From a bacterium (GTDB taxonomy: Bacteria > Patescibacteriota > Microgenomatia > UBA1400 > PJMF01): 64,000 nt of DNA. A model generated the notes under the pieces. The model had not been told where the DNA came from, ran no database searches, and saw only the letters and a program-made list of their open reading frames with translations. This document shows positions 22,994-59,850 of this stretch, in pieces. Position 1 is the first letter of the stretch, and each line of letters begins with the position of its first letter. Where the stretch lies: NCBI GenBank assembly GCA_027620445.1, contig JAQBYG010000001.1:5115-69114 (forward strand), written 5' to 3'. Both the position numbers and the translations under genes were made by a program.

Positions 22994-23536
22994 TTACTTT
23001 CCTATGATGTCTTGTTCCCAGTCACGACCGAACCAGAGACCGAGTGCTAACTTTGCAATACTAGCATATTCTGTAGTTCTATCAACAAAGCCACGCGTGA
23101 TCACCCCGATTGCCCCCTGCTTTTGCTTGATGTTATCTGTGGCAAATAACTGACTGACTGCGGGACCCATCTCTGCGCCAGCAGCTAATTTGTCTGCAAT
23201 TATTTTTGGCAGTTTGAAACGCGCACCGTTGCTTTCGTAGTACTCACCTGCCTGATCGATCAGCACCACCCACACGGTCGACCAGAGCTCTCCCTCATAG
23301 ATGTGAATGCCTCCCTCGAGACCAAGACCAAGGTCGGTCGTGTTGCCACCGGCTTCGAGCGCTGCGGCAGCTCTGTTTCTCGCACCTTGGCGAGTTTCTT
23401 CGTCGCTGCGCGGTTGCTCTGAGACGCCACTCGGGACCTCAAAGCCTGTCACTATTACATCTGGCCACTGGCCTTGGGCGGCTAGCCGCACAGCATTGAG
23501 CTTGACCGGATTGGTGCTGCCGACCGCAATTTTCAT
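22994..23536 (-). CDS. Inosine/xanthosine triphosphatase (YjjX/DUF84, Maf-Ham1 superfamily)
   Basis: MKIAVGSTNPVKLNAV...PSGVSEQPRSDEETRQGARNRA... aligns with E. coli YjjX (CATTNPAKI...[22 protein letters not shown]). Start set at internal ATG. 4-nt overlap with sufU stop. Confidence 0.75.
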   Translation of the reverse strand: MKIAVGSTNPVKLNAVRLAAQGQWPDVIVTGFEVPSGVSEQPRSDEETRQGARNRAAAALEAGGNTTDLGLGLEGGIHIYEGELWSTVWVVLIDQAGEYYESNGARFKLPKIIADKLAAGAEMGPAVSQLFATDNIKQKQGAIGVITRGFVDRTTEYASIAKLALGLWFGRDWEQDIIGK

Positions 23537-23913
23537 ACTTTCTCCAGTACTTTTTGTACGGTGTTGAGGCCAAGGAGTAAACACTTCTTGCGCGCGGTCG
23601 AAAAGGTCTTGAGCCCCAGCCAGCTCAAGAGGGTGTGCTCATCCCAGGTTACTACCTCGGCGACTTGTTCTCCCTGGAGATGATCGGACAGCAAGCTCAG
23701 GCTCGCGGTGCTGATGACGCAACCGGTGCCTTGCCACTTCATGGCTGTGATGTGTTTTTTATCTGCAGTGAGCCTGACAAAAACCCGGCAGCTATCGCCG
23801 CACGAGTTTACCTCTGGCGGAGAAGTTACATCAGCATCTAGCATCTCCCCTTTATGATGTGGGTCGCGTGCTGCTTCGAGCAACTCTTCGTGATATAAAT
23901 CGTCCATCTTCAC
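23533..23913 (-). CDS. sufU: SufU/IscU-like Fe-S cluster scaffold
   Basis: NSCGDSCRVFVRL...GTGCVISTASLS are the NifU-N/SufU cysteine motifs. Confidence 0.8.
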   Translation of the reverse strand: MKMDDLYHEELLEAARDPHHKGEMLDADVTSPPEVNSCGDSCRVFVRLTADKKHITAMKWQGTGCVISTASLSLLSDHLQGEQVAEVVTWDEHTLLSWLGLKTFSTARKKCLLLGLNTVQKVLEKV

Positions 23914-23916
23914 TTT

Positions 23917-25170
23917 CTATACGTTAAAAACTTGGCGAACTTTGGCCAGTCCTGCCACCAAAGCGTCAATATCAGCAGTTGTATTGTAGACGTTAAAACT
24001 CGCGCGCACGCTCGCCGTCCAGCCGAACTGCTCATGCAGCGGCATGGTGCAGTGATGGCCACTGCGAACAGCCACCCCAACGCTATCGAGTACCTGCGCT
24101 ACATCGTGGGCGTGCACTCCGTTGTAGGTAAAAGCGACCGAGCCAACTCGATCAACCTCGGTCTCACTAAAATCCTGTGGACCGATGATTGTAAGCTGTG
24201 GTACCGCCGAGAGTTTATCGAGCGCATACAGCACAAGATCTAGATCGTGCTGCCCAACGTCGCTCATGTGGAGCTTGGACAGGTACTCACAAGCAGCGGC
24301 CAAGCCAACGGCACTGGCCACATCCGGCGTCCCAGCGGTAAATCGCTCGCTTGCTTCGTCGGTGAAAGTGGTCCCTTTTGTCGTCACCGCCGCAATCATG
24401 CCACCACCAAATAACCACGGTCGTACTTCATTCGATTGCAAAAGAGCGCTGCGAACAAACACGCCCCCAATCCCCATCGGACCGAGCATTTTATGACCGC
24501 TGAACACAAGAAAGTCTGCGTCGAGCTTGGCAAATGAAACGGGGAGGTGTGGTGCAGACTGGGCAGCGTCAACGAGTACGCGAATGCCTGATTGAAGAGT
24601 GTGTGCCTCGGCAATAATCTCGGCAATCGGGTTGAGCGTCCCCAAGGTATTGGACACGTGTGAAAGTGCAAGAAGCTTCACTTTTGGCAAGGAAAGTTTG
24701 GCGCTCAAGGATGTACGATCGAGCCGACCGTCTTTGGTGAGCCCAATATACTCGACACTCGCACCAGTTCGTTTGGCTAACTCTTGCCAACACACAATGT
24801 TGGAGTGATGCTCCATGAGTGAAGTTAGAATGATATCGCCTGCTTGTAAATTGTGATCACCCCAGCCGTAGGCCACACCATTGATTGCCTCAGTCGTGTT
24901 GCGGGTGACGATCAGTTCGTCACTGTGCGCATCAAAAAACTTTGCGATGGTCGCACGACTTTCATCCCAAACTTGTGTACTCCTATCAGAGAGTTGATGC
25001 ACGCCGCGATGCACATTGGCATTGGTCGTTTGGTAGTACTGGGTAATGGCGTCAAGAACAACTTGGGGTTTTTGGCTTGTTGCTGCGCTGTCGAGGTAGA
25101 CGAGCTTGTCTCCCTGGGGGTTGTGGGTGAAAATGGGAAAGTCTTGGCGGATTGTGAGTGGGTTGAACAT
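23917..25170 (-). CDS. sufS: Cysteine desulfurase SufS
   Basis: 417 aa class-V aminotransferase: HHSNIVCWQ, PLP-lysine region FSGHKMLGPMGIGGVF, and active-site RSGHHC. Confidence 0.9.
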   Translation of the reverse strand: MFNPLTIRQDFPIFTHNPQGDKLVYLDSAATSQKPQVVLDAITQYYQTTNANVHRGVHQLSDRSTQVWDESRATIAKFFDAHSDELIVTRNTTEAINGVAYGWGDHNLQAGDIILTSLMEHHSNIVCWQELAKRTGASVEYIGLTKDGRLDRTSLSAKLSLPKVKLLALSHVSNTLGTLNPIAEIIAEAHTLQSGIRVLVDAAQSAPHLPVSFAKLDADFLVFSGHKMLGPMGIGGVFVRSALLQSNEVRPWLFGGGMIAAVTTKGTTFTDEASERFTAGTPDVASAVGLAAACEYLSKLHMSDVGQHDLDLVLYALDKLSAVPQLTIIGPQDFSETEVDRVGSVAFTYNGVHAHDVAQVLDSVGVAVRSGHHCTMPLHEQFGWTASVRASFNVYNTTADIDALVAGLAKVRQVFNV

Positions 25171-26453
25171 TAGATAGTTTTATCAAAATTTTCAACTATA
25201 GTGTTGAAATCAAAGAGATCAATCTTACAATCTCCCACTTGGTTATAGAAACAGTTTTCTGTATCGTACACGCCAGCAGCAATACTAACATCAAAAATGT
25301 CTACTTTATTATCTCTATTAAAGTCCCCCAACAATCTTGGGACTGGTGTGGGGGATGGTGTGGGAACAGGAGTTGGTACGGGGGTTGGTGTTGGCTGCGG
25401 ACACCGACTGATGGATGCTGTACGAAAAACGTCGTGCCACGGTCGTTTTCTGCCAGTAGAATCTATCAACCCCATTGCTGGATTACTAGAAAAATCACCC
25501 ATAGTGTGAAAAAAAGCAAGCGGCACGAACGAAAATTCAGGACTCGCAAGTCGCTCGATTGATTGAGATAAAAACTCCGCCCCTTGCGCCTCTGATATTG
25601 ATGTATCAGCACCCGGAATAACATTCCAACCATACTCTGTAATCCAGATAGGCTTTTGCGCCAGCTGATGCAGTCGCTTGACACTATCAAGATCAATGGC
25701 GCCGTGCCAATTGTAGGGATGTATAGAGAAAACATCGTAAGACCTGCCACCAGGACTGGAGTGCAGTCGCTCAACAAATGGTTCGTCCAAACGATCAAGC
25801 CCGCCAACGGAAACTATGATTGATTGGGAAACAGATTTCAGAGCCTTGTAGGTGATGTCTAGCCAATATGCATAGTCACGGACGGAATCATCTGAGTTGC
25901 CACAAAATCCCGTGCTCGAGCCGCAGCCGTTTTGCTCATTCCAGTACTCATATCGTGTCACCTGTGGGTACCTGCGAGCAGCAGTTTGCAAAAATCTCGT
26001 GTAATCTTGCTCAAACTCTCGTCTGGGCAATGCTTGGTGTGCTGGTAATGATCCCTCTTTTGCCCAATCGGGCGTGCCGACGACAAGTATCGTCACTGCC
26101 AAGCCATATTTTTCCGCCTCGGCAATGTCTGCATCTAGCTGTGCAAAATTGTATGCGCCTCTGCTTCTTTCAGAAATATCCCAATTTAGTGTCAATTTGG
26201 TTGCAGTGCCTCCAGCTTCATAAATAGCTTTGTACATGTTAGAAACATTTCCTCCTGGGTTGATGCCAAATAACAAAGGCCTAGTAAAGTTTGGACACGA
26301 AATACTTGCCGCAATAGCTTGGCTGCGAAAGGCTGTGTAACATACGATTAGAAAAGCTACTATCGCGACAACAGGGAAAAAGTGTTTACGTACAGCTTGA
26401 AAATGTAACATTAGTGATATTGTAGCAAGAAAGTTGCTATGCCTGGCCGCCAT
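25170..26453 (-). CDS. Secreted clan GH-A glycoside-hydrolase-like protein (GH5/GH39-like) with Pro-Thr linker and dockerin-like C-terminus
   Basis: Signal peptide. Candidate catalytic acid/base in YEYWNEQN and nucleophile in IWITEYGW, in the right order for a (beta/alpha)8 clan GH-A enzyme. Then CPQPTPTPVPTPVPTPSPTPVP linker and two Ca-binding-like segments GDFNRDNKVDIFD / GDCKIDLFDFN. 1-nt stop/start overlap with sufS. Confidence 0.55.
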   Translation of the reverse strand: MAARHSNFLATISLMLHFQAVRKHFFPVVAIVAFLIVCYTAFRSQAIAASISCPNFTRPLLFGINPGGNVSNMYKAIYEAGGTATKLTLNWDISERSRGAYNFAQLDADIAEAEKYGLAVTILVVGTPDWAKEGSLPAHQALPRREFEQDYTRFLQTAARRYPQVTRYEYWNEQNGCGSSTGFCGNSDDSVRDYAYWLDITYKALKSVSQSIIVSVGGLDRLDEPFVERLHSSPGGRSYDVFSIHPYNWHGAIDLDSVKRLHQLAQKPIWITEYGWNVIPGADTSISEAQGAEFLSQSIERLASPEFSFVPLAFFHTMGDFSSNPAMGLIDSTGRKRPWHDVFRTASISRCPQPTPTPVPTPVPTPSPTPVPRLLGDFNRDNKVDIFDVSIAAGVYDTENCFYNQVGDCKIDLFDFNTIVENFDKTI

Positions 26454-26507
26454 AAGTATTTACCACTTCTCTATCGGTATGGTTTAAGATTACTGCAAAT
26501 ATGTGTT

Positions 26508-27003
26508 TTAGATATCGATATAAAAAATTTGTGTGATACCGTAACCATCTACCCATAAATTGGGTATCTTGAAACCGACATACTTCACAGCTACTTCTGC
26601 TTTTAACTCTCTTAATTTTTGAGCAAAACTGCAACATGCAACACACTTGACTGTAAAGCCTCTAGCGCCAGCAGGAGTGCGGCAAGTGTTGTTCTCGAAT
26701 CTATCATATCCTCAATTACAAGCACATACTTTCCCGCTAATTCCTGTTCGTCGAAATGAAAATGAATAATTGGCTTACCTGTCGACTCCATTCCCTGATA
26801 ACTACTAATCTTGACTGATTCCCAGCGAATGCTGATTCCTAATTTTTTCAGCTCAACAACAAGTTGCTCAGCAAAAACTTGGGCGCTTTCGAGCACACAA
26901 AGTACGACTAGTTCAGCATCGCTTTCACCTACGGTTTACTCTCGAAAATCGGTCGCAATTTCAGTTGCGAAACTTCTAACACGAGCGAGAATTTAGTGCT
27001 CAT
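26508..27003 (-). pseudogene. hpt: Hypoxanthine-guanine phosphoribosyltransferase gene carrying two frameshifts
   Basis: Three frames together give a colinear HPRT: MSTKFSLVLEVSQLKLRPIFESKP | GESDAELVVLCVLESAQVFAEQLVVELKKLGISIRWESVKISSYQGMESTGKPIIHFHFDEQELAGKYVLVIEDMIDSRTTLAALLLALEALQSSVLHVAVLLKN | LRELKAEVAVKYVGFKIPNLWVDGYGITQIFYIDI. The second shift is at a T5/A5 run (26616..26620); the first is near 26925..26930. Confidence 0.6.
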
Positions 27004-27424
27004 ATAACAAAATTTCTTGAACCAAAGTAACCAACTCTATCGAGGAATATGGCGCATGAAAATACTCTTCGTTTACCAAAACTACCTGAACTGACTCAGA
27101 TCCGTCCCTAGTAAAAAGCACTGGTTGTCCTGCTACAGTACTAATAGGCACCCGCTCATGAGTTTGTCTTGGGGCAGCTAGACTCAACTTTGCCTGCTCA
27201 ACAGAGCAATTTTGCCAACTCACCCAAGTTTGAGGTGGCAACGTGATTGTTCCCGAAACGGATCGTGGTTCGAGCTCACCTGGGAGGATAATACTAAATG
27301 AGCCGAACTTTCCGACTGACTTGAGCAAGCAAAGAACTGCACAATCAGCATGTGAGAGTACTTCTGGAGCTGCTCCGCAGCCATAACCAATAGGCCTTTC
27401 ACTGTTTGGTATCATGGTAGGCAA
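26993..27424 (-). CDS. Hypothetical protein
   Basis: 143 aa, no recognised motif. Sits where tilS is found in many tilS-hpt-ftsH operons but lacks the PP-loop. Possibly a remnant. Confidence 0.3.
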   Translation of the reverse strand: MPTMIPNSERPIGYGCGAAPEVLSHADCAVLCLLKSVGKFGSFSIILPGELEPRSVSGTITLPPQTWVSWQNCSVEQAKLSLAAPRQTHERVPISTVAGQPVLFTRDGSESVQVVLVNEEYFHAPYSSIELVTLVQEILLYEH

Positions 27425-27463
27425 CTATAATAAACCCTGTCAACAGTGATACTATGAGTACGC

Positions 27464-27943
27464 ATGCAAAAAATCACCAAACTCCTCGCCTCAATCGTCG
27501 GTTGTGAACTTGTCGGGATTATCGGTGGCGTGAGCACAACCTTGTCGATCAGCACTTGGTATGTCACGCTCGAAAAACCGTTCTTTTCTCCGCCGAACTG
27601 GCTCTTTGGTCCCGTCTGGACAACTTTGTATCTTTTGATGGGAGTTTCATTTTTTCTGTTGTGGCAGCAAGGCTGGAAGAAAAAACAAGTTCGGACTGCT
27701 CGCAACTACTTCTTGGCACAACTCGGGCTCAACTTTATCTGGACTCCGGTATTCTTCGGCCTGAGATCCCCCGCGCTGGCACTGGTGATAATTCTTGGCT
27801 TACTTGTCCTTATCGTGCTGACGATCAAACACACATATAAAGTGTCGCGCTGGGCTGCATACTTGCTGGTACCCTACTTGCTCTGGGTGAGTTTTGCGAC
27901 GGCGCTCAATGCGGCGATAGTGGGGTTGAATTATGCGAAATAA
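27464..27943 (+). CDS. tspO: TspO/MBR family tryptophan-rich sensory protein
   Basis: WYVTLEKPFFSPPNWLFGPVWTTLYLLMG...LAQLGLNFIWTPVFFG...AAYLLVPYLLWVSFATALNAAIVGLN. Five TM helices with all TspO signature residues. Confidence 0.85.
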   Translation: MQKITKLLASIVGCELVGIIGGVSTTLSISTWYVTLEKPFFSPPNWLFGPVWTTLYLLMGVSFFLLWQQGWKKKQVRTARNYFLAQLGLNFIWTPVFFGLRSPALALVIILGLLVLIVLTIKHTYKVSRWAAYLLVPYLLWVSFATALNAAIVGLNYAK

Positions 27944-28463
27944 ATCCATCAAAAAAATTGCCATTTACCAAACTAAGAGCGGTGCGATTGTATTTCGTGA
28001 CGATTCGAAGCGAGAAACAATTTGGGGGGATTTGAATCAAATTGCAGATTTGTTTGGTCGTGATAAATCGGTTATTTCTCGTCACATCAATAATATTTAT
28101 AAATCAAGAGAACTTGAAGAGGCAGCAACTGTTGCAAAAATTGCAACAGTTCAAAAAGAAGGTGGTAGAGAGGTAACTCGTGAGATTGAACATTTTAACC
28201 TTGATATGATTTTATCTGTCGGATACAGGGTAGATTCTAAACAAGCAACGCAATTTCGCATCTGGGCAACCAAAACCCTCAAGCAGCACATTGTCCAGGG
28301 CTACACTATCAACAAAAAACGCGTTGGCGAGAATTACGAAAAATTCATGCAAGCGGTGGCGGATGTGAAAGCCTTGACTCTCCTTTTGGCAGAAAGTAAT
28401 CCGAAAGATAAAGATAAAATGATTGGGCTAACCTTGTTACTTCTGAATGGGGGAAGACAATAG
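27933..28463 (+). CDS. RhuM-family protein, N-terminal domain (ends at in-frame TAG)
   Basis: IAIYQTKSGAIVFRDDSKRETIWGDLNQIADLFGRDKSVISRHINNIYKSRELEEAATVAKIATVQKEGGREVTREIEHFNLDMILSVGYRVDSKQATQFRIWATKTLKQHIVQGYTINKKR matches the Virulence_RhuM N-domain. Overlaps the tspO stop by 11 nt. Confidence 0.75.
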   Translation: MRNKSIKKIAIYQTKSGAIVFRDDSKRETIWGDLNQIADLFGRDKSVISRHINNIYKSRELEEAATVAKIATVQKEGGREVTREIEHFNLDMILSVGYRVDSKQATQFRIWATKTLKQHIVQGYTINKKRVGENYEKFMQAVADVKALTLLLAESNPKDKDKMIGLTLLLLNGGRQ

Positions 28464-29069
28464 ATGCATGAAGTTAATTTGCGGCGGGAACATGATAGTG
28501 ATGACTTTGACTCAACCGCCAAAACTCTTTTTGCCCTCTCTGACATAAAATGGGAACTCCTCAATTTTGTAAAAAATAATCCGGGATGTGATATCGCGAC
28601 TATTGTAGAGCAGATCGGGGCGCCAACACCCGCAGTCATCCAAAAACACTTGAAAAGATTGGAGGTGTATGGGTTTATTGCATCACAAACAGGCCACGCC
28701 GTTAAACAAACTGGCGAGAAAAGACTGCTCTACTCACTTGCCCCAAGACATATTGCAGCTGCTATGGATAGTACACGGCAAATAGAAGAAGAACTAACAA
28801 TCAAACTTGATCCTCAGCTGGTGGTACGAATCCAGCAGCTCGGAAATGAACGAAAAATACGCAATCAAATCATTTGCATTTGTACTATGCTTCAAGATAA
28901 AGCACTTACACAAAGGGAGATTTTACTCGGACTGAGAGATTACTTTACACTAAAAAACTTACCCACCAATCATGCAGAGGTGTTACGACAACTTGTCGAA
29001 GCGGAGATTTTGAGGCGGACTATCAGTGAGAGGAAGCTAGGATACATCTATCAGCTGCCCAAATCCTGA
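28464..29069 (+). CDS. Winged-helix DNA-binding protein; likely the C-terminal continuation of the RhuM-family gene
   Basis: Starts with ATG immediately after the TAG, in the same frame. ArsR/MarR-like wHTH (CDIATIVEQIGAPTPAVIQKHLKRLEVYGFIA). Combined length 377 aa is similar to full-length RhuM-family proteins. Confidence 0.45.
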   Translation: MHEVNLRREHDSDDFDSTAKTLFALSDIKWELLNFVKNNPGCDIATIVEQIGAPTPAVIQKHLKRLEVYGFIASQTGHAVKQTGEKRLLYSLAPRHIAAAMDSTRQIEEELTIKLDPQLVVRIQQLGNERKIRNQIICICTMLQDKALTQREILLGLRDYFTLKNLPTNHAEVLRQLVEAEILRRTISERKLGYIYQLPKS

Positions 29070-29137
29070 TAAAGCATTATCATTGATCACGCTTTTCACC
29101 ATGAAAAAACTGTATTTGTTAAAATGATCATACAAAT

Positions 29138-30271
29138 ATGTCAAAGAGTAGTGAACAAATTCTGGCAGAAGCAAGACCCTCTAGAAAGAGACGAAAAGCA
29201 GAACGAATTCCAAGAAGAGCATTTTCAAAAGGACTCGCTTTGTTTTTACTAGGAACAGGTGCAGTTGTAGCATCGGGAGGCGTATTTCTTTGGAACAGAG
29301 AAAAAGACAAGGTGCCCAGTGTCGAAGCATCAATTTCCTTCATAAAAAATGAAGTTGAGAATCAAAAAAACTTGCCTTCACTGAGGGAGTACGGCGAGAG
29401 AAAAACAAAGATTTTTATTTTCCATGCCTATAATATTTTCTCTCAAGTGACTGGAAGTGCTCAATCGGCTAGAGCCATCATCGACAATACCTCACTAGTT
29501 GAGGCTGCGTATATTACTGCCCTGCATCAACAAGATATGTCGGGAGTTAACCTCAGTGAGCACCCAACTGCATCTGACCCCAGGGATACTAACGGAAAAG
29601 TTTATACAGCTGATAAAAAATCGGGCAAACTTGGTGTGGCTGTTAATCTAGATGCGCACTTGTTTCACTTAGATCAAATCCGAACGCGAACATATGATCA
29701 TTTTCAGGTGCAACAAACTGTACTGGGAAATTTGCTTGACACCGTTCTGCATGAGCCACATCACTACGAAATACCACGACAAACACTGACTACACCAATC
29801 GAGTATTCATTTCAAACTGCAGTTGGCACTACACACATTTCATACGAAGAAATCTGGGGTCTATCCATAAGTGGGACACTCGAAACACCGCCATATACTA
29901 CAATGTTGTCAGCAAACTTTGATGAAGCAAGCATTTATCTGATCCACAGAGACTTGCTACAACCAGCAGTCCAATCAAATTTTCCAACATATAGCTACTC
30001 GCCTCCAATGCGGGAGAATGCTTTGTTGTACATTCAACAAGTATTCCAGGCCATAGGAATCAACTCGCCACAAGCAATTCTAGAACTCAGAAGAGCACCC
30101 AGTGGAGGTCGTACCCTCATAGAAAAATTGGGAGCAAAACTGCCAGCAGGCACTTTTGGAGTCGAAAACGCTACAGAAAGAGGTATTGTTTTCTTGGGAA
30201 AATCAGAGGCTGCAGTAGATGGCAATGATCAAAAGAAAATGGATGAGTTGCTTGGGTTGTTGATAAATTAG
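29138..30271 (+). CDS. Hypothetical membrane-anchored protein with HExxH-like motif
   Basis: 377 aa. Basic N-terminus plus one TM helix (GLALFLLGTGAVVASGGVFLW), extracytoplasmic domain containing VLHEPHHYE (H-E-x-x-H). No other recognisable domain. Confidence 0.4.
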   Translation: MSKSSEQILAEARPSRKRRKAERIPRRAFSKGLALFLLGTGAVVASGGVFLWNREKDKVPSVEASISFIKNEVENQKNLPSLREYGERKTKIFIFHAYNIFSQVTGSAQSARAIIDNTSLVEAAYITALHQQDMSGVNLSEHPTASDPRDTNGKVYTADKKSGKLGVAVNLDAHLFHLDQIRTRTYDHFQVQQTVLGNLLDTVLHEPHHYEIPRQTLTTPIEYSFQTAVGTTHISYEEIWGLSISGTLETPPYTTMLSANFDEASIYLIHRDLLQPAVQSNFPTYSYSPPMRENALLYIQQVFQAIGINSPQAILELRRAPSGGRTLIEKLGAKLPAGTFGVENATERGIVFLGKSEAAVDGNDQKKMDELLGLLIN

Positions 30272-30365
30272 GAGCAAAGGTGAAAACTGCTCGGCTTACC
30301 CAAGTATTGAGGAAAAAGCCGCGCAACTTGAAATGTTAAGTAATTCTTAACAGCTGGAAAATAGC

Positions 30366-30393
30366 TTGACGACTTAAAAAATAAGCCTATAAT
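30366..30393 (+). promoter_or_regulatory. Near-consensus sigma70-type promoter (TTGACG-16 nt-TATAAT)
   Basis: TTGACG at 30366..30371 and TATAAT at 30388..30393 with a 16-nt spacer. No protein-coding gene follows on this strand. Confidence 0.5.
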
Positions 30394-30399
30394 AGCGAA

Positions 30400-30545
30400 T
30401 CAGCAAGTCCGGGTTTGGAGGAGAAGGTGGAATCCCTCCTTAAACAATCGTATCCAGACTCCAAGTTGGAAGAGGGTGGGTTTTCAGCCTCCTCTGAAAA
30501 AGTCCGATCAAAGCGGTACTCCAGCTGCTTGTTGTATTTTTTTTG
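30400..30545 (+). ncRNA. Candidate small RNA of about 145 nt, class unknown
   Basis: Begins about 7 nt after the -10 box. 5' CAGCAAG pairs with 3' CUUGUUG directly followed by a U8 run (intrinsic-terminator-like closing stem). Internal hairpins GGAGG...CCUCC and AGAGG...CCUCU. No ORF. Confidence 0.4.
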
Positions 30546-30546
30546 A

Positions 30547-30756
30547 TCAGAGAAGCGAGCTACTCGTTTTTCTTACTCTGTCTTTGACCTCAGAGTGAGT
30601 AAGCATTTTCAACATTTGATAATCGTGTCTACCGAGATAATAAACGAACTGTCCAATGCTTTCATTAAAAAATGCAGCTTCGATGGTAAATGTCATTCCT
30701 TCATAACGAACAAGATCGCCTTGCTTAAATAATGGCTCATCTTTTGGTTTTGACAT
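30547..30756 (-). CDS. Small hypothetical protein
   Basis: 69 aa, downstream of the short sufD in the same orientation. No motif. Confidence 0.3.
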   Translation of the reverse strand: MSKPKDEPLFKQGDLVRYEGMTFTIEAAFFNESIGQFVYYLGRHDYQMLKMLTHSEVKDRVRKTSSSLL

Positions 30757-30823
30757 AGTTAGATTATTCTAGTTTTTGAACTGTTTCCAAAATGAAAATA
30801 ACCACTTCGTGCCAAAGCTTCCC

Positions 30824-31312
30824 TCATTCTACCCCCAAAAAACCCTCCACAATCAGCCCCTCCGCCTTATTGCGACTCACCCCGCGACTCATGAGATAAA
30901 ACAGTTGTTCCTCGGGAATTGAGCTGATGCTCGCCGCGTGAGAGCACTTGACGTCGTCAGTCAAAATCTCGAGCTCTGGCACTGCCTCTGCCTTTGCTTC
31001 TGGTGAAAGTAACAGGATGCGCTCGGTCAGGAATGAGTTGGTGTCGGGACACTCGGGATCAATTTTTATCTTGCCCCAAAATGAGATAAACCCTGTATCA
31101 GCCACAGCCCCGTGCAGCTTGGTGGTCGCTCGGGTGTGCGGGGCTTGGTGGTGGATAGTGACGGCAATTTTGATGCGCTCGGTACCGGTGGCATGGAAGC
31201 TACCAGTGAGTGTCAACTCCACACTTGGCTTGGTCAAGAAATACTCGTACTCGCCCGGGGTTGAGATCGTAATATTTTGTGACTCGCTGATGGTGGTTTG
31301 GATTGCCGACAT
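30824..31312 (-). CDS. sufD: Minimal SufD-like Fe-S assembly protein (SufBD C-terminal beta-helix only)
   Basis: 162 aa. C-terminal ...[29 protein letters not shown] parallels the SufB C-terminus ([26 protein letters not shown]). 1-nt overlap with the sufB stop. Confidence 0.6.
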   Translation of the reverse strand: MSAIQTTISESQNITISTPGEYEYFLTKPSVELTLTGSFHATGTERIKIAVTIHHQAPHTRATTKLHGAVADTGFISFWGKIKIDPECPDTNSFLTERILLLSPEAKAEAVPELEILTDDVKCSHAASISSIPEEQLFYLMSRGVSRNKAEGLIVEGFLGVE

Positions 31313-32739
31313 TACCCGATGCTCCCTTCCATCTCGTGATCAATCAGACGATTCATCTCGACCGCGTATTCGAGTGGCAGTTTTTTGATGAGATCACCGA
31401 TAAAACCGTGCACGATCATTTTGCGGGCTGCTTCTTCGTTGACGCCGCGACTCATGAGATAAAACAGCTGCTCGTCGCCGATTTTAGAAACGGTTGCTTC
31501 GTGCTGAATTGCTACATCTGAGGCAAATACTTTATCGACGGGGTACGTGTCGGAGCGAGATTCTGGATCCAGGAGGAGTGCGTCACAGATGACAGAGTTT
31601 TGACTGTGGTGGGCGTGTGGCCCGACCGAGACAAGGCCCCGATAGCTCGTGCGGCCGCCATTTTTACTAATCGACTTTGAAACTATTGAAGAGCTCGTGT
31701 AGGGCGCCAAGTGAATCGCTTTGCTGCCGGTATCTTGATGCTGACCAGCGCCGGCCAGAGCCATGCTCAGCGTCTCGCCTCTGGCACCTTTGCCTGCGAG
31801 AATGAAACTGGGGTACTTCATCGTGACCTTGGAGCCCATGTTAAAGTCCGTCCAGATCATCTCGCCCTCAGCCTCGACGCGCGCGCGCTTGGTGACGAGG
31901 TTGTAGACGTTTTTGTACCAGTTTTGGATGGTGGTGTATTGGCAGCGTGCGCCAGCTTTGACGTAGATCTCGACAACCGCAGAATGGAGCGAGCCGCTCG
32001 AAAAACTTGGGGCGGTGCACCCTTCAACATAATGCACACTCGCACCTTCGTCGACGATAATGAGCGTACGCTCGAACTGGCCAGCGTTGGGTGAGTTAAT
32101 GCGAAAGTAGGTCTGGAGTGGGAGCTGCACTTTGACATTTTTTGGAATGTACACAAAAGAGCCACCCGACCAGACTGCTGAGTTGAGCGCCGCAAACGTG
32201 TTGTCACCACTCGGGATCAGTTTACCAAAGTATTCCTTGACCAATTCGGGGTACTGCGCCAATCCCTCGTCCATCGAGAGAAAAATGACACCGTCTTTGG
32301 CGTAGGCTGCCTTGAGCGAACCGTACACAACCTCGCTATCGTACTGGGCTTTGACACCCGCGAGCACACCGCGCTCTGCCTCGGGGATGCCGAGTTTGTC
32401 AAAGGTCGCTTTGACCTCTGGAGGGACGTCGTCCCAGGACTTGGACTGAGCATCGGTTGGCTTGAGGTAGTAGTGAATGTCGTCAAAAGCTATGCCAGAG
32501 AGATCGGCGCCCCACGGGGGCAACTGCATGTGCTGGTACTGCTCTAGTGCCTTGAGTCGGTACTGGAGCATCCAATCTGGTTCAGATTTGAATGCAGAAA
32601 TTTCTCCTACCACCCGCTTCGATAAACCAGGTTTGGCGATGTGTTTGTAGCCTGCCGTCGAGGAAGAGTAGCCATGCTCGTATGTCTCGTCTCGGCTTGG
32701 GGTGAAGGCGGTAGTGTGTTTTTGCGCAAAACGAGCCAT
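31312..32739 (-). CDS. sufB: Fe-S cluster assembly protein SufB
   Basis: 475 aa. Conserved SufB core and C-terminal signature. Confidence 0.9.
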
Positions 32740-33200
32740 CAGGTATTGCTCCGGACCAGTATCTGGCGAATAAATCCGTTGGGCTCTCCTGCAAAACCAA
32801 AGTCATACAAACCAAGCTCTGCAAACGAAACCCAAGCAAACTCGGTGTGCTCGCTACTGAGGCGTACTTTTTGTGTACCAGACAAGGCAACCCTCCAACC
32901 AACAATGAGTGAATACACTTGCCTTTCGGCGTCAAAGTAGGTATCAAAATAAATCGGCTGAGTGAACATGCTGTTTGCCAGGGAGATTCCTGTTTCTTCC
33001 ATAATTTCACGCGTAATATCGTCTTGGTGTAAGCCGTGTTGCGTTCGTTGCATCTCTGGCCACTCGCTATTGCCGCCAGGGAGATCCCATTTTCCTGCAC
33101 GTGTTTTACTGTCATCTGCTCGCTTGAGGATGAGAACTTGGCCATCAGCCACCAGGGCAGCTTTTTGCAGTACTTTTACCTGTTCTGTGAGTTGATGCAT
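32739..33200 (-). CDS. NUDIX hydrolase
   Basis: Nudix box GGNSEWPE-x7-REIMEETGI. Embedded between sufC and sufB with 1-4 nt overlaps. Confidence 0.8.
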
Positions 33201-33203
33201 AGT

Positions 33204-33962
33204 CTAGTCCTTGAGCGTTGTGTAGCCTGATTTCTCGAGCTTCTCGACCAATTCTGGACCGCCAGATTGTTTTATTTTACCCGCAACGAGCACGTGGACA
33301 ACATCTGGTTTGAGGTACTGCAAAATGCGCTGATAATGGGTAATAACCAAGACGCCCAGGGAAAATTTCTTTTGCAAAACAGCAACGGCCTTTGCAACTT
33401 TTTTGATGGCGTCGATATCGAGCCCCGAGTCTGTCTCATCGAGAATAACGTACTTGGGTTCGAGCACCGCTAGTTGCAAAATCTCGAGCTGCTTCTTCTC
33501 ACCACCGCTGAATCCTTCATTGAGCCCACGCCTAAGAAACGTCTCGTCAATTTTGAGCTCCTGAGCAATTGCCTTGAGGTGGTTGCGAAACGCCAAGACT
33601 GTTTTGAATTGGCGGTTGGGCTCACTGGCAAACCGCGCTTGGTAGGCTTGGCGCAGGAAGTTCTGGACCGAGACACCGGGCACTTCGACCGGATACTGGA
33701 AAGCTAGAAACAAGCCTTTTTGGGCGCGCTCGTCGGGGGAAAGCTCGATAATATCTTCGCCGTCGAGTGTCACTTTTGAACCCGAGAGGATGGTGTATGA
33801 CGGATGACCTGCCAGCGCATACGCGAGCGTACTTTTGCCCGAGCCATTGGGACCCATGATCGCGTGCAGCTCTCCCGGCTTGAGCGTCAGTGACACACCA
33901 TTGAGAATCTGCTTCTCATCGATTGAAACTTGTAAATTGGTGAGTTGTAATCCCTTTGTCAT
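33204..33962 (-). CDS. sufC: Fe-S cluster assembly ATPase SufC
   Basis: MTKGLQLTNLQVSIDEKQILNGVSLTLKPGELHAIMGPNGSGKST (Walker A), ABC signature LSGGEKK-like FSGGEKKQ, Walker B ILDETDSGLD. Start set at internal ATG. Confidence 0.9.
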   Translation of the reverse strand: MTKGLQLTNLQVSIDEKQILNGVSLTLKPGELHAIMGPNGSGKSTLAYALAGHPSYTILSGSKVTLDGEDIIELSPDERAQKGLFLAFQYPVEVPGVSVQNFLRQAYQARFASEPNRQFKTVLAFRNHLKAIAQELKIDETFLRRGLNEGFSGGEKKQLEILQLAVLEPKYVILDETDSGLDIDAIKKVAKAVAVLQKKFSLGVLVITHYQRILQYLKPDVVHVLVAGKIKQSGGPELVEKLEKSGYTTLKD

Positions 33963-34020
33963 GCAGGGGGGATTATAGCAGCACTTGACTATATACACCA
34001 CAAAATGATATATATACACC

Positions 34021-34269
34021 ATGCAAAGATATCAAGTATATTTTGAACCCAGCACAATGGACACGCTACAACAACTTGGGCAAATGTCTGGTGTTTCGAG
34101 ATCACACTTGTTGCAAGAATTGGCAGATATACTTGCCACACGCTATAAATCCTTTGTAAAACAGGAACAAAAAACCATGGGAAATATTCTAAACTTATCT
34201 GGAATCATCTCTGGAAAATCAACTACACACACAGCTACAAAATCTGATGCCGAGTACTTCGGCATATAA
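34021..34269 (+). CDS. Ribbon-helix-helix (CopG-like) antitoxin, VapB-like
   Basis: RYQVYFEPSTMDTLQQLGQMSGVSRSHLLQELADILA fits the RHH beta-alpha-alpha fold. Its stop is 1 nt before the PIN gene start. Confidence 0.55.
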   Translation: MQRYQVYFEPSTMDTLQQLGQMSGVSRSHLLQELADILATRYKSFVKQEQKTMGNILNLSGIISGKSTTHTATKSDAEYFGI

Positions 34270-34270
34270 A

Positions 34271-34690
34271 ATGAAAATCCTTCTTGATACCAGCGTACTT
34301 ATTTCGCTACAGGTTGATACAGAAGCGACACATGCAAAAGTACAAAAATACCTGGCAGAACAACAAAGACTTGGCAGTAGATTCCTGGTTACAGACTATG
34401 TGCTTGATGAACTATTTACCAGAATCTTGTATGACTTTGGTGCCAAGGCTGCAAAAGTATCCACAAAAGCTATCGCCAAAGAACTAGAAAACGGTTCTCT
34501 CCACTTATTTCCTATTTCTTCTGACCTCTTCAATCGAGCACAAGACATTTTTGTTGAAATGGCTACCAGAAAATTCTCATTTACAGATGCTTCTACCTTG
34601 GCCGTATATCGCCACTATAAAATTGATGAAATCTGTACGCTTGATGGAGGATTTCACAAAGCAGGGGCTGTTATCAGCTATCTTGACTAA
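34271..34690 (+). CDS. vapC: PIN-domain toxin (VapC-like)
   Basis: MKILLDTSVLIS (first Asp), DYVLDE and FTDASTLAV acidic motifs. About 140 aa. Confidence 0.8.
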   Translation: MKILLDTSVLISLQVDTEATHAKVQKYLAEQQRLGSRFLVTDYVLDELFTRILYDFGAKAAKVSTKAIAKELENGSLHLFPISSDLFNRAQDIFVEMATRKFSFTDASTLAVYRHYKIDEICTLDGGFHKAGAVISYLD

Positions 34691-36630
34691 TGTAACTGCT
34701 CTTGAAACTGCTTTCTTTGCTGCAGAAAGCGAAGCTTGTCGTCCAAGACCGATCGCACATACCAATATGCCTCTACCGGATGAAAGAGGCAGTAGCGAAT
34801 TGCTTTGGCACAGTTTGGGGCAAGGTAAACGTCGACATCTTGCGAAAAAGCCCCCGCTGTAATCAGCGCGTTCACATGCATCGGTTTTTGCGCAACAATG
34901 TCAATAAAGATCATTCCATTACTACCGTGCGGAGGCAAGCTGCTTGCGGTAGCTTCGGCCGCTGAGAGCGAGATGTCTGGCGGTTCAGAAAGAAGTATGG
35001 GAAAGCCTTCACTGTCGTTTGGAAACAATACGAGTCGAGCAGGATTTCTGCCTGCAACAGCGTAACGATTATTGATGAAGAGCGTGGTCTGTTCAACAAC
35101 TATCTCACCTAGTTGAATTTCGGGAAATAATTGGCCTTTCTTACTTTTGCGCTCTGAAGCAAGTAACTCGGGTGAGGAAAACGGGGTGTAGGTGTTATTG
35201 CTTACTGCAAATCCCCAAGCTGGAAGCCCTACAGTTGTTTGCCAATCCAAAGTAATTTGAGGTCCCCCTTGCAGTAACTCAAATGAATTTGGAGAAAAGC
35301 GAATAATCGATGTAGTTATTTCCTCAAATGAAAGTGGTGACAAGTCACTTGCTATCTCCCAAAGCTTCGCCTCTGGATACGAGCTCGGTCGATCTTTGAG
35401 AACATCATTGCGCGCTGCCTGCCCCACCTGTGTTGTGCTCCCTCTGGAGCCATCCAGAATGTAGGGCACAATCCACCACCCCATACTCCTTGCCGTATCG
35501 TCCAGGTATGGATCGGGAAATTGCTCGTCGTAGATTCTCAGATCGGTAATTGCCAATGTGCCATCACTCAATCGCAAACGAACTCGATACTTAGGTGTCG
35601 TAATCCACCAAGCTCGTTCTGCTGCATCTGTTTGACTGACACCTTCATAGACCGACATTTTTTGTACAGGCTGCGTCCGCATCCATGAGTAAAAATCGCC
35701 CGCTGTAACAACCCGACCGTGCGAGTTTGCTTGCCAGTTCTCAACTACATCAAGCTGCTGAAAAAACTCCTGTTGGTTCTCGGCCGCGAGCGAGTTTTCT
35801 ATTCCAAGCTGGGCAAAGGTATAGCCATTGCTTGCCGGCTGGTCGTGCGCCTGTAGAAATAAGTGGGAAAAATACTCTGTCGTGGCACCACGCAAGCGAT
35901 AATCATTTGGTTGGGAGGTAAACGCACTCGTCTGGTCACCATAGTTATAGACCGGATCAGTGATCGTTTGACGGAGAATCAAAGTCGAATCCACAGCACT
36001 CTCGCTCGGCATCACTGCCCAGTCCGCGCCGCTCCAATACGGGTAATGTGGCGGACCACCATACAGCGTGTACGAATCTGTACCAAACTGTTCACGCGTA
36101 ATCTCATGAGTGGTAACCCCATACTCATTTCGCAGGTACCTGAGTGAAAAAGGATCAATCATCCAGGCCGTCGTGGTCTTTGGGTACACTCCAAAAACTG
36201 TTTTAAACTGCTCCATGTACGCGTCAATCAATGCCGCTCGCTCCTCTTGTGAGTAGCCAACTAAAAAGACATGCTGTGCCTCAAACCAGTTTTCTGCAGA
36301 ACCGGTGTACTCCACACTCGCTGCCTCAGCTAACGAGGGAGTGACTTCGAGTAACCCCCCGTACTCAAACTCAGGATAATTCTTGATAGCGGCGACAAAA
36401 TCTGGGTTACTCAGAGCGTCGTAGCGAATAGTAAAAGTAGCAGCCAGATTTCTGTTTTGTAACTCTCGCTGTTGCTCACTAAAAGCAGCTACAGTTCCCG
36501 CATCACAACACTCAGTACCGCGTACTTGGTTGATAATGACGGCATAGTGAGGAATATCTTCTACGGCAAATGCCGGCGAATACGTGCTACACAAACCAAA
36601 TAAAAAAACAACAAAAATCAAGATTCGCAT
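34687..36630 (-). CDS. Large secreted hypothetical protein
   Basis: 647 aa with a cleavable signal peptide (MRILIFVVFLFGLCSTYSPAFA). No confidently recognised domain. Possibly carbohydrate-active, but this is only a guess from composition. Confidence 0.45.
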   Translation of the reverse strand: MRILIFVVFLFGLCSTYSPAFAVEDIPHYAVIINQVRGTECCDAGTVAAFSEQQRELQNRNLAATFTIRYDALSNPDFVAAIKNYPEFEYGGLLEVTPSLAEAASVEYTGSAENWFEAQHVFLVGYSQEERAALIDAYMEQFKTVFGVYPKTTTAWMIDPFSLRYLRNEYGVTTHEITREQFGTDSYTLYGGPPHYPYWSGADWAVMPSESAVDSTLILRQTITDPVYNYGDQTSAFTSQPNDYRLRGATTEYFSHLFLQAHDQPASNGYTFAQLGIENSLAAENQQEFFQQLDVVENWQANSHGRVVTAGDFYSWMRTQPVQKMSVYEGVSQTDAAERAWWITTPKYRVRLRLSDGTLAITDLRIYDEQFPDPYLDDTARSMGWWIVPYILDGSRGSTTQVGQAARNDVLKDRPSSYPEAKLWEIASDLSPLSFEEITTSIIRFSPNSFELLQGGPQITLDWQTTVGLPAWGFAVSNNTYTPFSSPELLASERKSKKGQLFPEIQLGEIVVEQTTLFINNRYAVAGRNPARLVLFPNDSEGFPILLSEPPDISLSAAEATASSLPPHGSNGMIFIDIVAQKPMHVNALITAGAFSQDVDVYLAPNCAKAIRYCLFHPVEAYWYVRSVLDDKLRFLQQRKQFQEQLH

Positions 36631-37764: not shown

Positions 37765-38376
37765 CTACTGTACCATTGCGGCATAGCGTGCTTCAACCTG
37801 AGACCAGTCCAGCACCTGCCAAATGGCTTGAATATAATCTGGGCGCTTGTTTTGGTACTTAAGGTAATAAGCATGTTCCCAAACATCGAGACCAATGATT
37901 GGCTGATCTGCCTGCAAGAGCGGCGAGTCCTGATTTGGCGTGCTGTAGATTGCAAGCGTTCCGTCTGCTTTTTGTACTAACCAGGCCCAACCTGAGCCAA
38001 ATTGACCGGCTGCTGCATCGGCGAACTTTTGCTTAAACACATCCATACTGCCAAATGTCTTCGTTATTGCGGCTACGAGGGTTGGCGCTTGTGCCTCAGT
38101 GGTACCAACGCCAAGAATTGACCAGAAAAATGAGTGATTGGCGTGGCCACCAGCGTGGTTGCGCACTGCCGTTTTGATTTCTTCGGGCAAACTGGAAAAC
38201 TTGCCGAGCAGCTCTACAACCGAAAGTGCTTGCAAATCTGCGTGTTTCTCGAGTGCGGCATTCAACTTATCGACGTAAGTCTGGTGATGCTTAGTGTGAT
38301 GGATCTCCATCGTCTTCGCATCGATGTGTGGTTCGAGGGCTGAATACTCAAATGGGAGTGGGGGAAGTGTATGCAT
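37765..38376 (-). CDS. sodA: Fe/Mn superoxide dismutase
   Basis: HHTKHHQTY, metal ligands in [18 protein letters not shown]. Start set at ATG 38376 ([11 protein letters not shown]...), which gives a canonical 203-aa SOD. The longer track ORF adds an unlikely N-terminal extension. Confidence 0.9.
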
Positions 38377-38438
38377 ATTAAGAGTACTATAGCATACAAG
38401 AGCCTCGAAGTTTTTGACTAGGTATGTAATAATATGTT

Positions 38439-38642
38439 GTGATGAAAAATATATTTCTGCAACAATTAGAAGAAAATGAAGAATCCAGACAAGTAAGAAT
38501 TCGCGTGTTTGGACCACCTCCTGCAAACGAAGACGAGGGCATTAGACCAGGAAAATCTGTGTCCGAAATCTTGAATGCAATGAAAAAAGCCTCGAAAGAA
38601 AATCTGCTGCGTGTCCCCCGAAGTAATGCAATCACCAACTAA
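38439..38642 (+). CDS. Small acidic protein, putative antitoxin partner of downstream PIN protein
   Basis: 67 aa. Overlaps the PIN gene start. No fold assignable. Confidence 0.3.
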
Positions 38643-59849: not shown

Positions 59850-59850
59850 T

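What the first reader, a model, noticed from the sequence alone, without database searches (positions are those of the whole stretch)
25170..26453. Secreted GH-A-type hydrolase with Pro-Thr linker and dockerin-like C-terminus, co-transcribed with sufS
The protein carries candidate NEQ/TEYG catalytic glutamates in clan GH-A order, then a (PT)n linker (DNA 25344..25405 looks like a GGTGTGGG tandem repeat on the plus strand), then two GDxNxDxKxDxxD-like calcium-binding segments resembling a type I dockerin. Dockerin-like modules imply attachment to a cohesin-bearing scaffold or cell-surface partner, which would be unexpected in a small-genome organism. Its stop overlaps the sufS start by 1 nt, an odd operon partner.
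Basis: partly seen in the sequence, partly recalled or inferred. Interest (0 to 1): 0.5.

Follow-up and report, generated by a model that had tools for sequence, protein, structure and literature searches.

The report
Secreted glycosidase with dockerin-like tail
This gene from a tiny-genome (CPR/Pacebacteria-type) bacterium encodes a secreted sugar-chain-cutting enzyme with a flexible linker and a divergent dockerin-type attachment module, wedged into the iron-sulfur (suf) operon; it is a recognisable enzyme type, and the interesting part is that relatives carry candidate cohesin-like anchor genes next to it.

Summary
The ORF is real: 25170..26453, minus strand, 427 aa (public annotation starts at M15, 413 aa, "glycosyl hydrolase").

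- **Linker:** a 21-aa Pro/Thr-rich linker follows the barrel.
- **C-terminal module:** 55 aa. A family profile hits almost only solved dockerins (best E 1.9e-5). Pfam Dockerin_1 stays below threshold. Loop 1 is canonical. Loop 2 is degenerate and bracketed by a conserved Cys pair, a variant seen in many metagenomic proteins.
- **sufS overlap:** the TAATG stop/start overlap is confirmed. At least five Pacebacteria lineages keep a GH-dockerin gene just upstream of sufS, inside a variable island that splits the suf operon. This looks like synteny, not a functional link.
- **Partners:** no cohesin or second dockerin module was found in the 64 kb. In two relatives the orthologous GH-dockerin genes are followed by three membrane-anchored candidate cohesin-like genes, the last ending in LPxSG plus a transmembrane segment. 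The cohesin evidence is weak.

Verdict: an ordinary enzyme class and a new member of a known kind. The likely mechanism is surface tethering of a scavenging glycanase. Interest is moderate.

The parts
25170..26453 (-). Whole ORF, 427 aa including stop (public call starts at 26411 and gives 413 aa): signal peptide, clan GH-A catalytic barrel, PT linker, dockerin-like module
26310..26453 (-). N-terminal export signal (residues 1-48). It has an RK n-region, the hydrophobic core FFPVVAIVAFLIVCYTAF (25-42) and an AIA|AS cleavage-type motif. It could instead be an uncleaved membrane anchor.
   Evidence: Read from the sequence. Homologues have equivalent hydrophobic N-termini ending in V-x-A|AD. No signal-peptide predictor was available.
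25401..26297 (-). (β/α)8 clan GH-A catalytic domain (residues about 53-351), bounded by conserved C53 and C351. C177 and C184 flank the loop after the acid/base Glu.
25935..25937 (-). E173, predicted general acid/base (WNEQN)
   Evidence: Invariant in A1 and A2. Aligns with the PslG NEP Glu (chain residue 139, which is E165 if the construct offset is 26; PMC4928890).
25635..25637 (-). E273, predicted nucleophile (ITEYGW)
   Evidence: Invariant in A1 and at least 90% conserved in A2. Aligns with the PslG TEWGW Glu (chain residue 250). The 111-residue spacing equals E165-E276.
25338..25400 (-). Pro/Thr(Val,Ser) linker PQPTPTPVPTPVPTPSPTPVP. On the plus strand it shows a short GGTGTGGG period-12 echo.
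   Evidence: Homologues have linkers of variable length at this position.
25173..25337 (-). Dockerin-like module (residues 373-427)
   Evidence: Profile A3 against PDB: 2y3n_B E 1.9e-5, and 20 of 23 hits are dockerins. Pfam Dockerin_1 is sub-threshold. Profile A4 finds 1732 representatives at E<=1e-3, and 20 of 50 sampled pass Dockerin_1 at E<=1e-3.
25290..25325 (-). Ca-binding loop 1, DFNRDNKVDIFD. Ligand positions 1, 3, 5, 9 and 12 are D, N, D, D, D, which is canonical.
   Evidence: Alignment to the 2y3n_B dockerin
25209..25244 (-). Degenerate loop 2, NQVGDCKIDLFD (N at position 1, V at position 3). It is bracketed by conserved C401 and C409, a putative disulfide.
   Evidence: both Cys invariant in A4; 67 of 83 full-length module matches carry the C-x5-10-C pair
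25168..25172 (-). TAATG junction: the GH stop codon overlaps the sufS start codon by 1 nt
23917..25170 (-). sufS (class-V aminotransferase / cysteine desulfurase), the immediate downstream gene. It is followed by sufU (23533..23913).
   Evidence: Pfam PF00266 E 3.9e-126 and NifU_N E 1.8e-13
30824..34022 (-). Upstream half of the split suf operon: sufC, NUDIX gene, sufB, short sufD. The GH lies in the variable island between this block and sufS.
   Evidence: ORFs. Identities rest on matching lengths and order with the annotated relatives; the window's own sufB sequence hits the relatives' sufB with phmmer. These four window ORFs were not scanned against Pfam.

Best explanation
The gene encodes a Sec-exported, retaining clan GH-A glycanase. 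E173 is the predicted acid/base and E273 the predicted nucleophile. A flexible Pro/Thr linker joins the barrel to a divergent dockerin-type module. Shown here: the fold, the catalytic pair, the linker, homology of the tail to dockerins, and the gene order. Inferred: the enzyme leaves the cell through the Sec pathway. Its six extracytoplasmic Cys form three disulfides, one of which clamps the degenerate second loop of the dockerin-like module. The module then tethers the enzyme to the cell surface by binding a membrane- or wall-anchored cohesin-like protein encoded elsewhere in the genome. From that position the enzyme depolymerises an exogenous β-linked glycan (host-derived or environmental) to feed a scavenging, fermentative cell. 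The gene is very probably co-transcribed, and possibly translationally coupled, with sufS. The reason is that in Pacebacteria a GH-dockerin cassette was inserted into a variable spot between sufD and sufS. The adjacency does not indicate that the enzyme takes part in Fe-S cluster assembly.
For: Fold and family. Invariant glutamates aligned with the PslG catalytic pair. Dockerin homology. Conserved synteny: a GH-dockerin gene lies immediately upstream of sufS in the window and in at least four other lineages at 58-66% identity (L008/L024, L009/L026, L027, L019-22/L025/L028). Candidate partner linkage: in Ca. Pacebacteria RIFCSPLOWO2_01_FULL_47 (L019-L022) and in the unrelated genomic context of Patescibacteria LejiaA_43_11 (L010, next to gyrA), the GH-dockerin genes are followed by three genes for TM-anchored proteins with a shared β-rich domain. 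Two of these hit Pfam Cohesin at E 1.4e-4 to 7e-3 over about 120 of 139 model positions. The last protein ends in LPSSG or LPESG plus a TM segment, a sortase-type signal. Scavenging role: the same Cys-pair module sits on GH28, GH5, β-helix/pectate-lyase-like, nuclease/phosphatase and metallophosphatase proteins. A separate GH39 next to glycosyltransferases (57346..58758) is the better candidate for processing the cell's own glycans. No terminator-like site lies between the GH gene and sufS.
Against: No cohesin-like ORF and no second dockerin module were found in the 64 kb, so the partner in this organism is hypothetical. Three of the five suf-linked lineages, including the window, lack the cohesin-like genes in the island. 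Evidence that the neighbours in relatives are cohesins is weak. The Pfam hits are below the cut-off. hhalign against C. thermocellum cohesins is not significant. The PDB profile hits are at E 0.03. The AF2 model of P0211 has pLDDT 51, and Foldseek gives no significant match with it. The dockerin-like module itself is modelled with low confidence (block pLDDT 42-76) and fails the Pfam threshold. Substrate and endo/exo mode are unknown. A promoter-like hexamer pair inside the 3' end of the GH gene (25222..25195) could drive sufS independently.
Confidence: 0.6

Rival explanations
1. Orphan dockerin-like module. The C-terminal module is a dockerin-fold Ca2+/disulfide-stabilised domain that does not bind a cohesin in this organism. 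It might bind a glycan, an S-layer or host-surface component, or simply stabilise the secreted enzyme. The enzyme is then free or attached by other means.
For: No cohesin-like ORF in the window. Three of five related suf islands carry GH-dockerin genes without cohesin-like neighbours. The locus of another Cys-pair dockerin protein (L023, 810-kb contig) shows no Cohesin family among its neighbours. The second loop is degenerate. Dockerin-like modules without matching cohesins are widespread outside cellulosome producers; this is general knowledge from the literature on non-cellulosomal dockerins and was not tested here.
Against: GH-dockerin genes are adjacent to the same set of three anchored β-domain genes in two different genomic contexts (L019 and L010), which suggests a functional pairing. 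Only 64 kb of the genome could be searched.
Confidence: 0.3
2. PslG-like housekeeping enzyme. The GH trims or releases the cell's own exopolysaccharide or wall glycan during biosynthesis, as PslG does, rather than degrading foreign polysaccharide.
For: PslG is the best sequence and Foldseek match. Distant Chloroflexi homologues carry LysM, SH3_3 and GH18 domains, which suggests cell-wall association.
Against: Identity to PslG is only about 20%, and the PslG/GH39 C-terminal β-sandwich is absent. The gene is not next to glycosyltransferases, whereas another GH39 in the window is. The family shows tandem duplication and variable inserted domains (P0004, L010 1081 aa), as is typical of foraging enzymes. 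The module is shared with pectinase-, cellulase- and nuclease-type proteins.
Confidence: 0.25
3. Functional partnership with Fe-S cluster assembly. The GH is a genuine component or regulator of the Suf pathway, which would explain the overlap with sufS.
For: The 1-nt stop/start overlap and conservation of the GH-sufS adjacency in at least five lineages.
Against: The protein is exported while Suf is cytoplasmic. The sufD-sufS gap holds unrelated cargo in different genomes: MazG, a helicase, HPRT, TspO, RhuM, and cohesin-like genes. The L010 orthologue sits next to gyrA with no suf genes nearby. More distant homologues show no suf linkage.
Confidence: 0.03

Closest known systems
PslG of Pseudomonas aeruginosa (PDB 4zn2, 5bx9) and the Bacteroides cellulosilyticus GH39 protein (5jvk); CAZy GH39, clan GH-A
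   Different: Only about 20% identity. There is no hit to Pfam GH39 (PF01229). The C-terminal β-sandwich domain is missing. A PT linker and dockerin-like module take its place. The gene is not in a polysaccharide-synthesis cluster.
Pfam PF11790 Glyco_hydro_cc (to my recollection, not checked here, this corresponds to CAZy GH128 / Asl1-like β-1,3-glucanases)
   Same: It is the only Pfam family above its gathering score (30.9 vs 21 bits). It is also the precomputed annotation of all close homologues.
   Different: The match covers only model positions 127-199 of 237, the region around β6-β7. Substrate specificity cannot be transferred from it.
Type I dockerins of cellulosomal enzymes (e.g. Pseudobacteroides cellulosolvens Cel48 dockerin, 2y3n_B) and non-cellulosomal dockerins such as the Clostridium perfringens GH84 module (2jnk, 2ozn)
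   Same: C-terminal position after a Pro/Thr linker on a glycoside hydrolase. Length about 55 aa. The first 12-residue loop is canonical and followed by a helix. The full-length profile match is E 1.9e-5.
   Different: The second loop has a hydrophobic residue at ligand position 3 and is bracketed by a conserved Cys pair. The module is below the Pfam cut-off. No cohesin partner has been shown. There is no cellulosome context: no multi-cohesin scaffoldin or CBM was seen.
Dockerin and cohesin proteins reported in CPR bacteria (essential dockerin-domain protein SEML1_0315 of Southlakia epibionticum; expressed cohesin- and dockerin-domain proteins of Ca. Shapirobacterales)
   Same: Cell-envelope proteins with dockerin-type modules in small-genome epibiotic or symbiotic bacteria, proposed to target glycans or mediate adhesion (PMC10633639; 10.1101/2021.08.21.457207).
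   Different: Those reports are domain annotations without described partners or gene cassettes. The link here is to a specific GH family and, in relatives, to adjacent candidate anchors inside the suf operon.

Membership tests
Clan GH-A glycoside hydrolases (4/7 superfamily) | (β/α)8 TIM-barrel catalytic fold | tested here: met
Clan GH-A glycoside hydrolases (4/7 superfamily) | Acid/base Glu preceded by Asn at the end of strand 4, and nucleophile Glu at the end of strand 7 | tested here: met
   N172-E173 and E273 are invariant in 11 homologues. N172, E173 and H245 are invariant and E273 is at least 90% conserved in 31 homologues. They align with the PslG NEP and TEWGW glutamates, spacing 111 as for E165/E276.
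Clan GH-A glycoside hydrolases (4/7 superfamily) | Retaining hydrolysis of a glycosidic bond | not testable with these tools
   Needs enzymology.
CAZy GH39 (PslG-like) | Significant match to the family sequence model (Pfam PF01229) | tested here: not met
   No PF01229 hit at E<=0.1. The other GH in the window (57346..58758) does hit PF01229, E 1.2e-30. dbCAN was not available.
CAZy GH39 (PslG-like) | C-terminal β-sandwich domain packed against the barrel | tested here: not met
   The barrel ends at about residue 351 and runs straight into the PT linker.
Pfam PF11790 Glyco_hydro_cc | Whole-protein score above the gathering cut-off | tested here: met
   30.9 bits against a cut-off of 21, but only 73 of 237 model positions are aligned.
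Type I dockerin (Pfam PF00404) | Score above the Pfam gathering cut-off | tested here: not met
   13.8 bits against 22.9, matching only the first 17 residues. The best among 9 family members is E 0.0042.
Type I dockerin (Pfam PF00404) | Homology to solved dockerin modules over the full length | tested here: met
   Family profile A3 against PDB: 2y3n_B E 1.9e-5 (profile 6-59 to chain 4-63), and 20 of 23 hits are dockerins. Of 50 representatives retrieved with profile A4, 20 pass Dockerin_1 at E<=1e-3.
Type I dockerin (Pfam PF00404) | Two duplicated loop-helix (F-hand) segments, each with Asp/Asn at loop positions 1, 3, 5, 9 and 12 | tested here: inconclusive
   Loop 1 (DFNRDNKVDIFD) has all five. 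Loop 2 (NQVGDCKIDLFD) has N, V, D, D, D, so position 3 is lost, and a Cys pair is added. Homologue P0009 keeps two canonical repeats. The model shows two helices but with low pLDDT.
Type I dockerin (Pfam PF00404) | Ca2+-dependent binding to a cohesin module | not testable with these tools
   No cohesin was found in the window. Candidate cohesin-like genes are adjacent in relatives L019 and L010, but with sub-threshold evidence.
Cellulosome | Scaffoldin with multiple cohesins plus a cellulose-binding module, recruiting several dockerin enzymes | tested here: not met
   The window has one dockerin-like protein and no cohesin or CBM family hit. Relatives show at most one or two cohesin-like domains per protein.

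The most novel reading that the evidence does not exclude
Pacebacteria (CPR) have a minimal, non-cellulosomal cohesin-dockerin surface-display system. Its enzyme subunits are a distinct PslG/GH39-like branch of clan GH-A. These carry a previously undescribed dockerin variant in which the second Ca2+ loop is replaced or clamped by a disulfide, which would imply a single binding mode and partial Ca independence. The anchors are TM- and sortase-attached cohesin-like proteins. The cassette is embedded in the essential suf operon. The window holds a reduced version, with the enzyme retained and the anchors elsewhere or lost.
Probability: 0.3. Interest if true: 0.55.

Novelty: new member of a known kind. 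Interest (0 to 1): 0.38.

Why it matters
CPR bacteria depend on other cells and on scavenged polymers. How they attach enzymes to their surface is poorly known. A GH with a dockerin-type tail, genetically linked in relatives to anchored cohesin-like proteins, gives a concrete and testable candidate for enzyme display in these organisms. It also defines a Cys-bracketed dockerin variant that is common in metagenomes. The enzyme class and modular design are otherwise familiar, and the sufS overlap is best explained by genome compaction around an insertion-prone site.

Tried and rejected
1. **Functional link to Suf: rejected.** The sufD-sufS gap carries unrelated cargo in different genomes, and the L010 orthologue lies next to gyrA.
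2. **Cohesin in the window: not found.** Pfam scans of about 47 ORFs, hmmsearch with the dockerin profile, and phmmer/hmmsearch with the relatives' cohesin-like proteins gave only PT-linker matches.
3. **Proving the cohesin fold of the relatives' neighbours: inconclusive.**
   - hhalign of A5 against C. thermocellum cohesins (sequences verified against PDB) gave probability 0.4%.
   - The PDB profile search gave R. flavefaciens cohesins on top, but at E 0.03.
   - A narrower two-sequence profile lost even these hits.
   - Single-sequence AF2 of P0211 reached pLDDT 51, and Foldseek found no significant match. Cohesins merely had the best TM-scores, 0.40-0.44.
4. **Other dead ends.**
   - NCBIfam gave nothing for the GH or the unknown neighbours.
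   - The afdb50 fold library was unavailable.
   - Cluster look-up of ten Cys-pair dockerin proteins returned no names, so their taxonomy stays unknown.
5. **Relation to the window's other GH: rejected as a close paralogue.** The GH39 at 57346..58758 shows BLASTP E 0.13 to this protein.
Full report
**Observation.** The minus strand carries an ORF from ATG 26453 to TAA 25172..25170, 427 codons. Public assemblies hold the identical gene called from M15 (413 aa) and named "MAG: glycosyl hydrolase [bacterium]".

- WNEQNG at residues 171-176.
- ITEYGW at residues 271-276.
- The linker PQPTPTPVPTPVPTPSPTPVP at residues 352-372.
- A C-terminal module of 55 aa.

The stop codon shares one base with the sufS ATG, reading TAATG.

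Two details were overstated. The "GGTGTGGG tandem repeat" is two exact copies 12 nt apart, which TRF reports as 2.1 copies. It is only the codon echo of the linker. Also, only the first Ca-type segment fits the stated pattern.

**Organism and surroundings.** Close homologues come from Candidatus Pacebacteria/Paceibacterota and other Patescibacteria MAGs. The window has CPR-like content, with one tRNA and a tmRNA. The gene sits between an HPRT-like gene and sufS-sufU. sufC, a NUDIX gene, sufB and sufD lie 5.6 kb upstream on the same strand. So the GH is inside an island that splits the suf operon.

**Catalytic domain.**
- Pfam gives only PF11790 Glyco_hydro_cc (30.9 bits, partial coverage).
- PDB sequence search gives PslG at E 3e-7. 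NEQ aligns with NEP and TEYGW with TEWGW.
- The two aligned PslG glutamates are 111 residues apart, as are the published catalytic E165 and E276 (PMC4928890).
- E173 and E273 are invariant in 11 homologues. N172, E173 and H245 are invariant in a 31-sequence alignment reaching Chloroflexi GH5/GH39/GH10-annotated proteins.
- An AlphaFold2 model (mean pLDDT 83) gives a confident TIM barrel.

The protein lacks the GH39 β-sandwich domain and does not hit the GH39 Pfam model. It is therefore a clan GH-A enzyme nearest to GH39/PslG, not a demonstrated GH39 member. Substrate and endo/exo mode remain unknown.

**Export.** The N-terminus has a basic n-region, an 18-residue hydrophobic core and AIA|AS. 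Homologues have equivalent N-termini. Six Cys in the mature part are conserved: C53, C177, C184, C351, C401 and C409. This fits an extracytoplasmic protein. It is inference, because no predictor was available.

**C-terminal module.**
- Alone, it scores 13.8 bits against Dockerin_1 (cut-off 22.9), on its first 17 residues only.
- A profile of nine family members hits 23 PDB sequences at E<=10, of which 20 are dockerins. The best is the Cel48 dockerin 2y3n_B at E 1.9e-5 over the full length.
- An exhaustive HMMER search with an eight-member version of the profile (A4) finds 1732 representatives at E<=1e-3, mostly at protein C-termini.
- Of 50 sampled representatives, 20 pass Dockerin_1 at E<=1e-3. 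Their catalytic parts include GH28, GH5, β-helix, nuclease/phosphatase and metallophosphatase families.

Loop 1 (DFNRDNKVDIFD) has all five canonical ligand positions. Loop 2 (NQVGDCKIDLFD) has Val at position 3 and is bracketed by C401 and C409, which are invariant in the family. Of 83 full-length module matches among the top representatives, 67 carry such a Cys pair. That figure is biased upward, because the query profile contains the Cys pair. Homologue P0009 retains two canonical repeats.

The module is thus a divergent member of the dockerin superfamily, of a common but apparently undescribed Cys-bracketed type. A literature search found no description of it. In the model it forms two helices at low confidence.

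**Partners.** The window contains no other dockerin-like module. No Cohesin family hit appeared among about 47 ORFs scanned. No homologue of the relatives' cohesin-like proteins was found either.

In relatives the picture differs:
- In Ca. Pacebacteria RIFCSPLOWO2_01_FULL_47 (L019-L022, L025, L028) the sufD-sufS island reads GH-dockerin (410 aa), GH-dockerin (640 aa), then three further genes. These are a 372-aa TM-anchored protein with a cohesin-like domain and a C-terminal dockerin-like segment; a 196-aa TM-anchored protein; and a 322-aa protein with the same β-domain, a PT linker, a Cys-rich stretch and LPSSG plus a TM segment. sufS follows.
- In Patescibacteria LejiaA_43_11 (L010) a 1081-aa GH-dockerin next to gyrA is followed by an equivalent trio, the last ending in LPESG plus a TM segment.

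The same pairing in two different genomic contexts argues for a functional link.

The evidence that these domains are cohesins is weak:
- Pfam Cohesin at E 1.4e-4 to 7e-3, below the cut-off.
- R. flavefaciens cohesins top the PDB profile search, but at E 0.03.
- hhalign against C. thermocellum cohesins is not significant.
- A single-sequence AF2 model was too poor to decide.

**Why next to sufS.** GH-dockerin genes lie directly upstream of sufS in the window, L008/L024, L009/L026, L027 and the L019 group. The adjacency is therefore old within this clade. The sufD-sufS gap also carries MazG, a helicase, HPRT, TspO, RhuM-like, MarR-like and other genes in different genomes. The L010 orthologue is not near suf genes. 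More distant homologues in Planctomycetota, Verrucomicrobiota and Myxococcota have neither a dockerin module nor suf neighbours.

Co-transcription with sufS is likely, given the overlap and the absence of a terminator-like site. A promoter-like site at 25222..25195 could also serve sufS. A role in Fe-S assembly is very unlikely.

**Mechanism proposed.** The protein is exported by the Sec pathway and folds oxidatively. Its dockerin-type tail then attaches it to a cohesin-like anchor on the membrane or wall. From there it performs retaining hydrolysis of an exogenous β-glycan at the cell surface.

- Shown: fold, catalytic pair, module homology and synteny.
- Inferred: export, disulfides, docking and substrate class.

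The main rival is that the module is an orphan with no cohesin partner in this organism.

**Comparison and novelty.** GH plus PT linker plus dockerin is a classic design. Dockerin and cohesin domains have already been noted in CPR bacteria (PMC10633639; 10.1101/2021.08.21.457207). The gene is already annotated generically. It is a new member of a known kind. Two modestly new aspects stand out: the Cys-bracketed, half-degenerate dockerin variant, and the candidate cohesin-like cassette embedded in the suf operon of relatives. Interest is 0.38.

Noticed in passing
window 26480..26896 (-): The HPRT-like (Pribosyltran) gene just upstream of the GH is split. A 94-aa ORF (26612..26896) matches residues 1-87 of the relative's 164-aa protein. 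The C-terminal part (KAEVAVKYVGFKIPNLWVDGYGI...) continues in another frame. The frameshift lies near an A-run at about 26610-26625, so this is either a pseudogene or an assembly error.
   Followed up: partly
window 57346..58758 (+), with 58746..59990 (-), 53339..54043 (-), 51062..53335 (-): A second, unrelated clan-A enzyme: a TM-anchored GH39 (PF01229, E 1.2e-30) with a C-terminal β-rich tail. It lies next to GT4, GT2 and YfhO-like genes. It is a better PslG-type candidate for processing the cell's own glycans.
   Followed up: partly
window 25173..30823: The suf operon is split by a 5.6-kb island of mixed orientation. It holds a TM-anchored 377-aa protein with an HEPHH (HExxH-type) motif (29138..30271 +), a MarR-like gene, a truncated RhuM-like gene, TspO (27464..27943 +), a 143-aa unknown, the HPRT-like gene and the GH. 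Relatives carry different cargo at the same spot.
   Followed up: partly
L019 3668..9516; L010 7971..14657: In two related CPR genomes the GH-dockerin genes are followed by three TM-anchored proteins with a shared candidate cohesin-like β-domain. One also has a C-terminal dockerin-like segment. The last ends in LPSSG or LPESG plus a TM segment, a sortase-type signal.
   Followed up: partly
window 34687..36630 (-): A 647-aa protein with a clear signal peptide (MRILIFVVFLFGLCSTYSPAFA|VED) and no Pfam or NCBIfam family. Its function is unknown.
   Followed up: no
representatives P0064-P0210: The Cys-pair dockerin modules fall into two sub-variants. The longer one, NCGNxADIDGNCKVDIFDYN, keeps a canonical second loop. 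The shorter one, NCxYNLTGSCLIDIFDYN, has a degenerate second loop like the window's. Their taxonomy is unknown. Two such proteins lie on one 810-kb contig (L023 region).
   Followed up: partly
window 34247..34690 (+), 38611..39144 (+), 43034..43672 (-): Two PIN-domain genes and a Peptidase_C39-like gene are scattered among housekeeping genes. A superoxide dismutase (37765..38526) has an N-terminal extension of about 50 aa.
   Followed up: no
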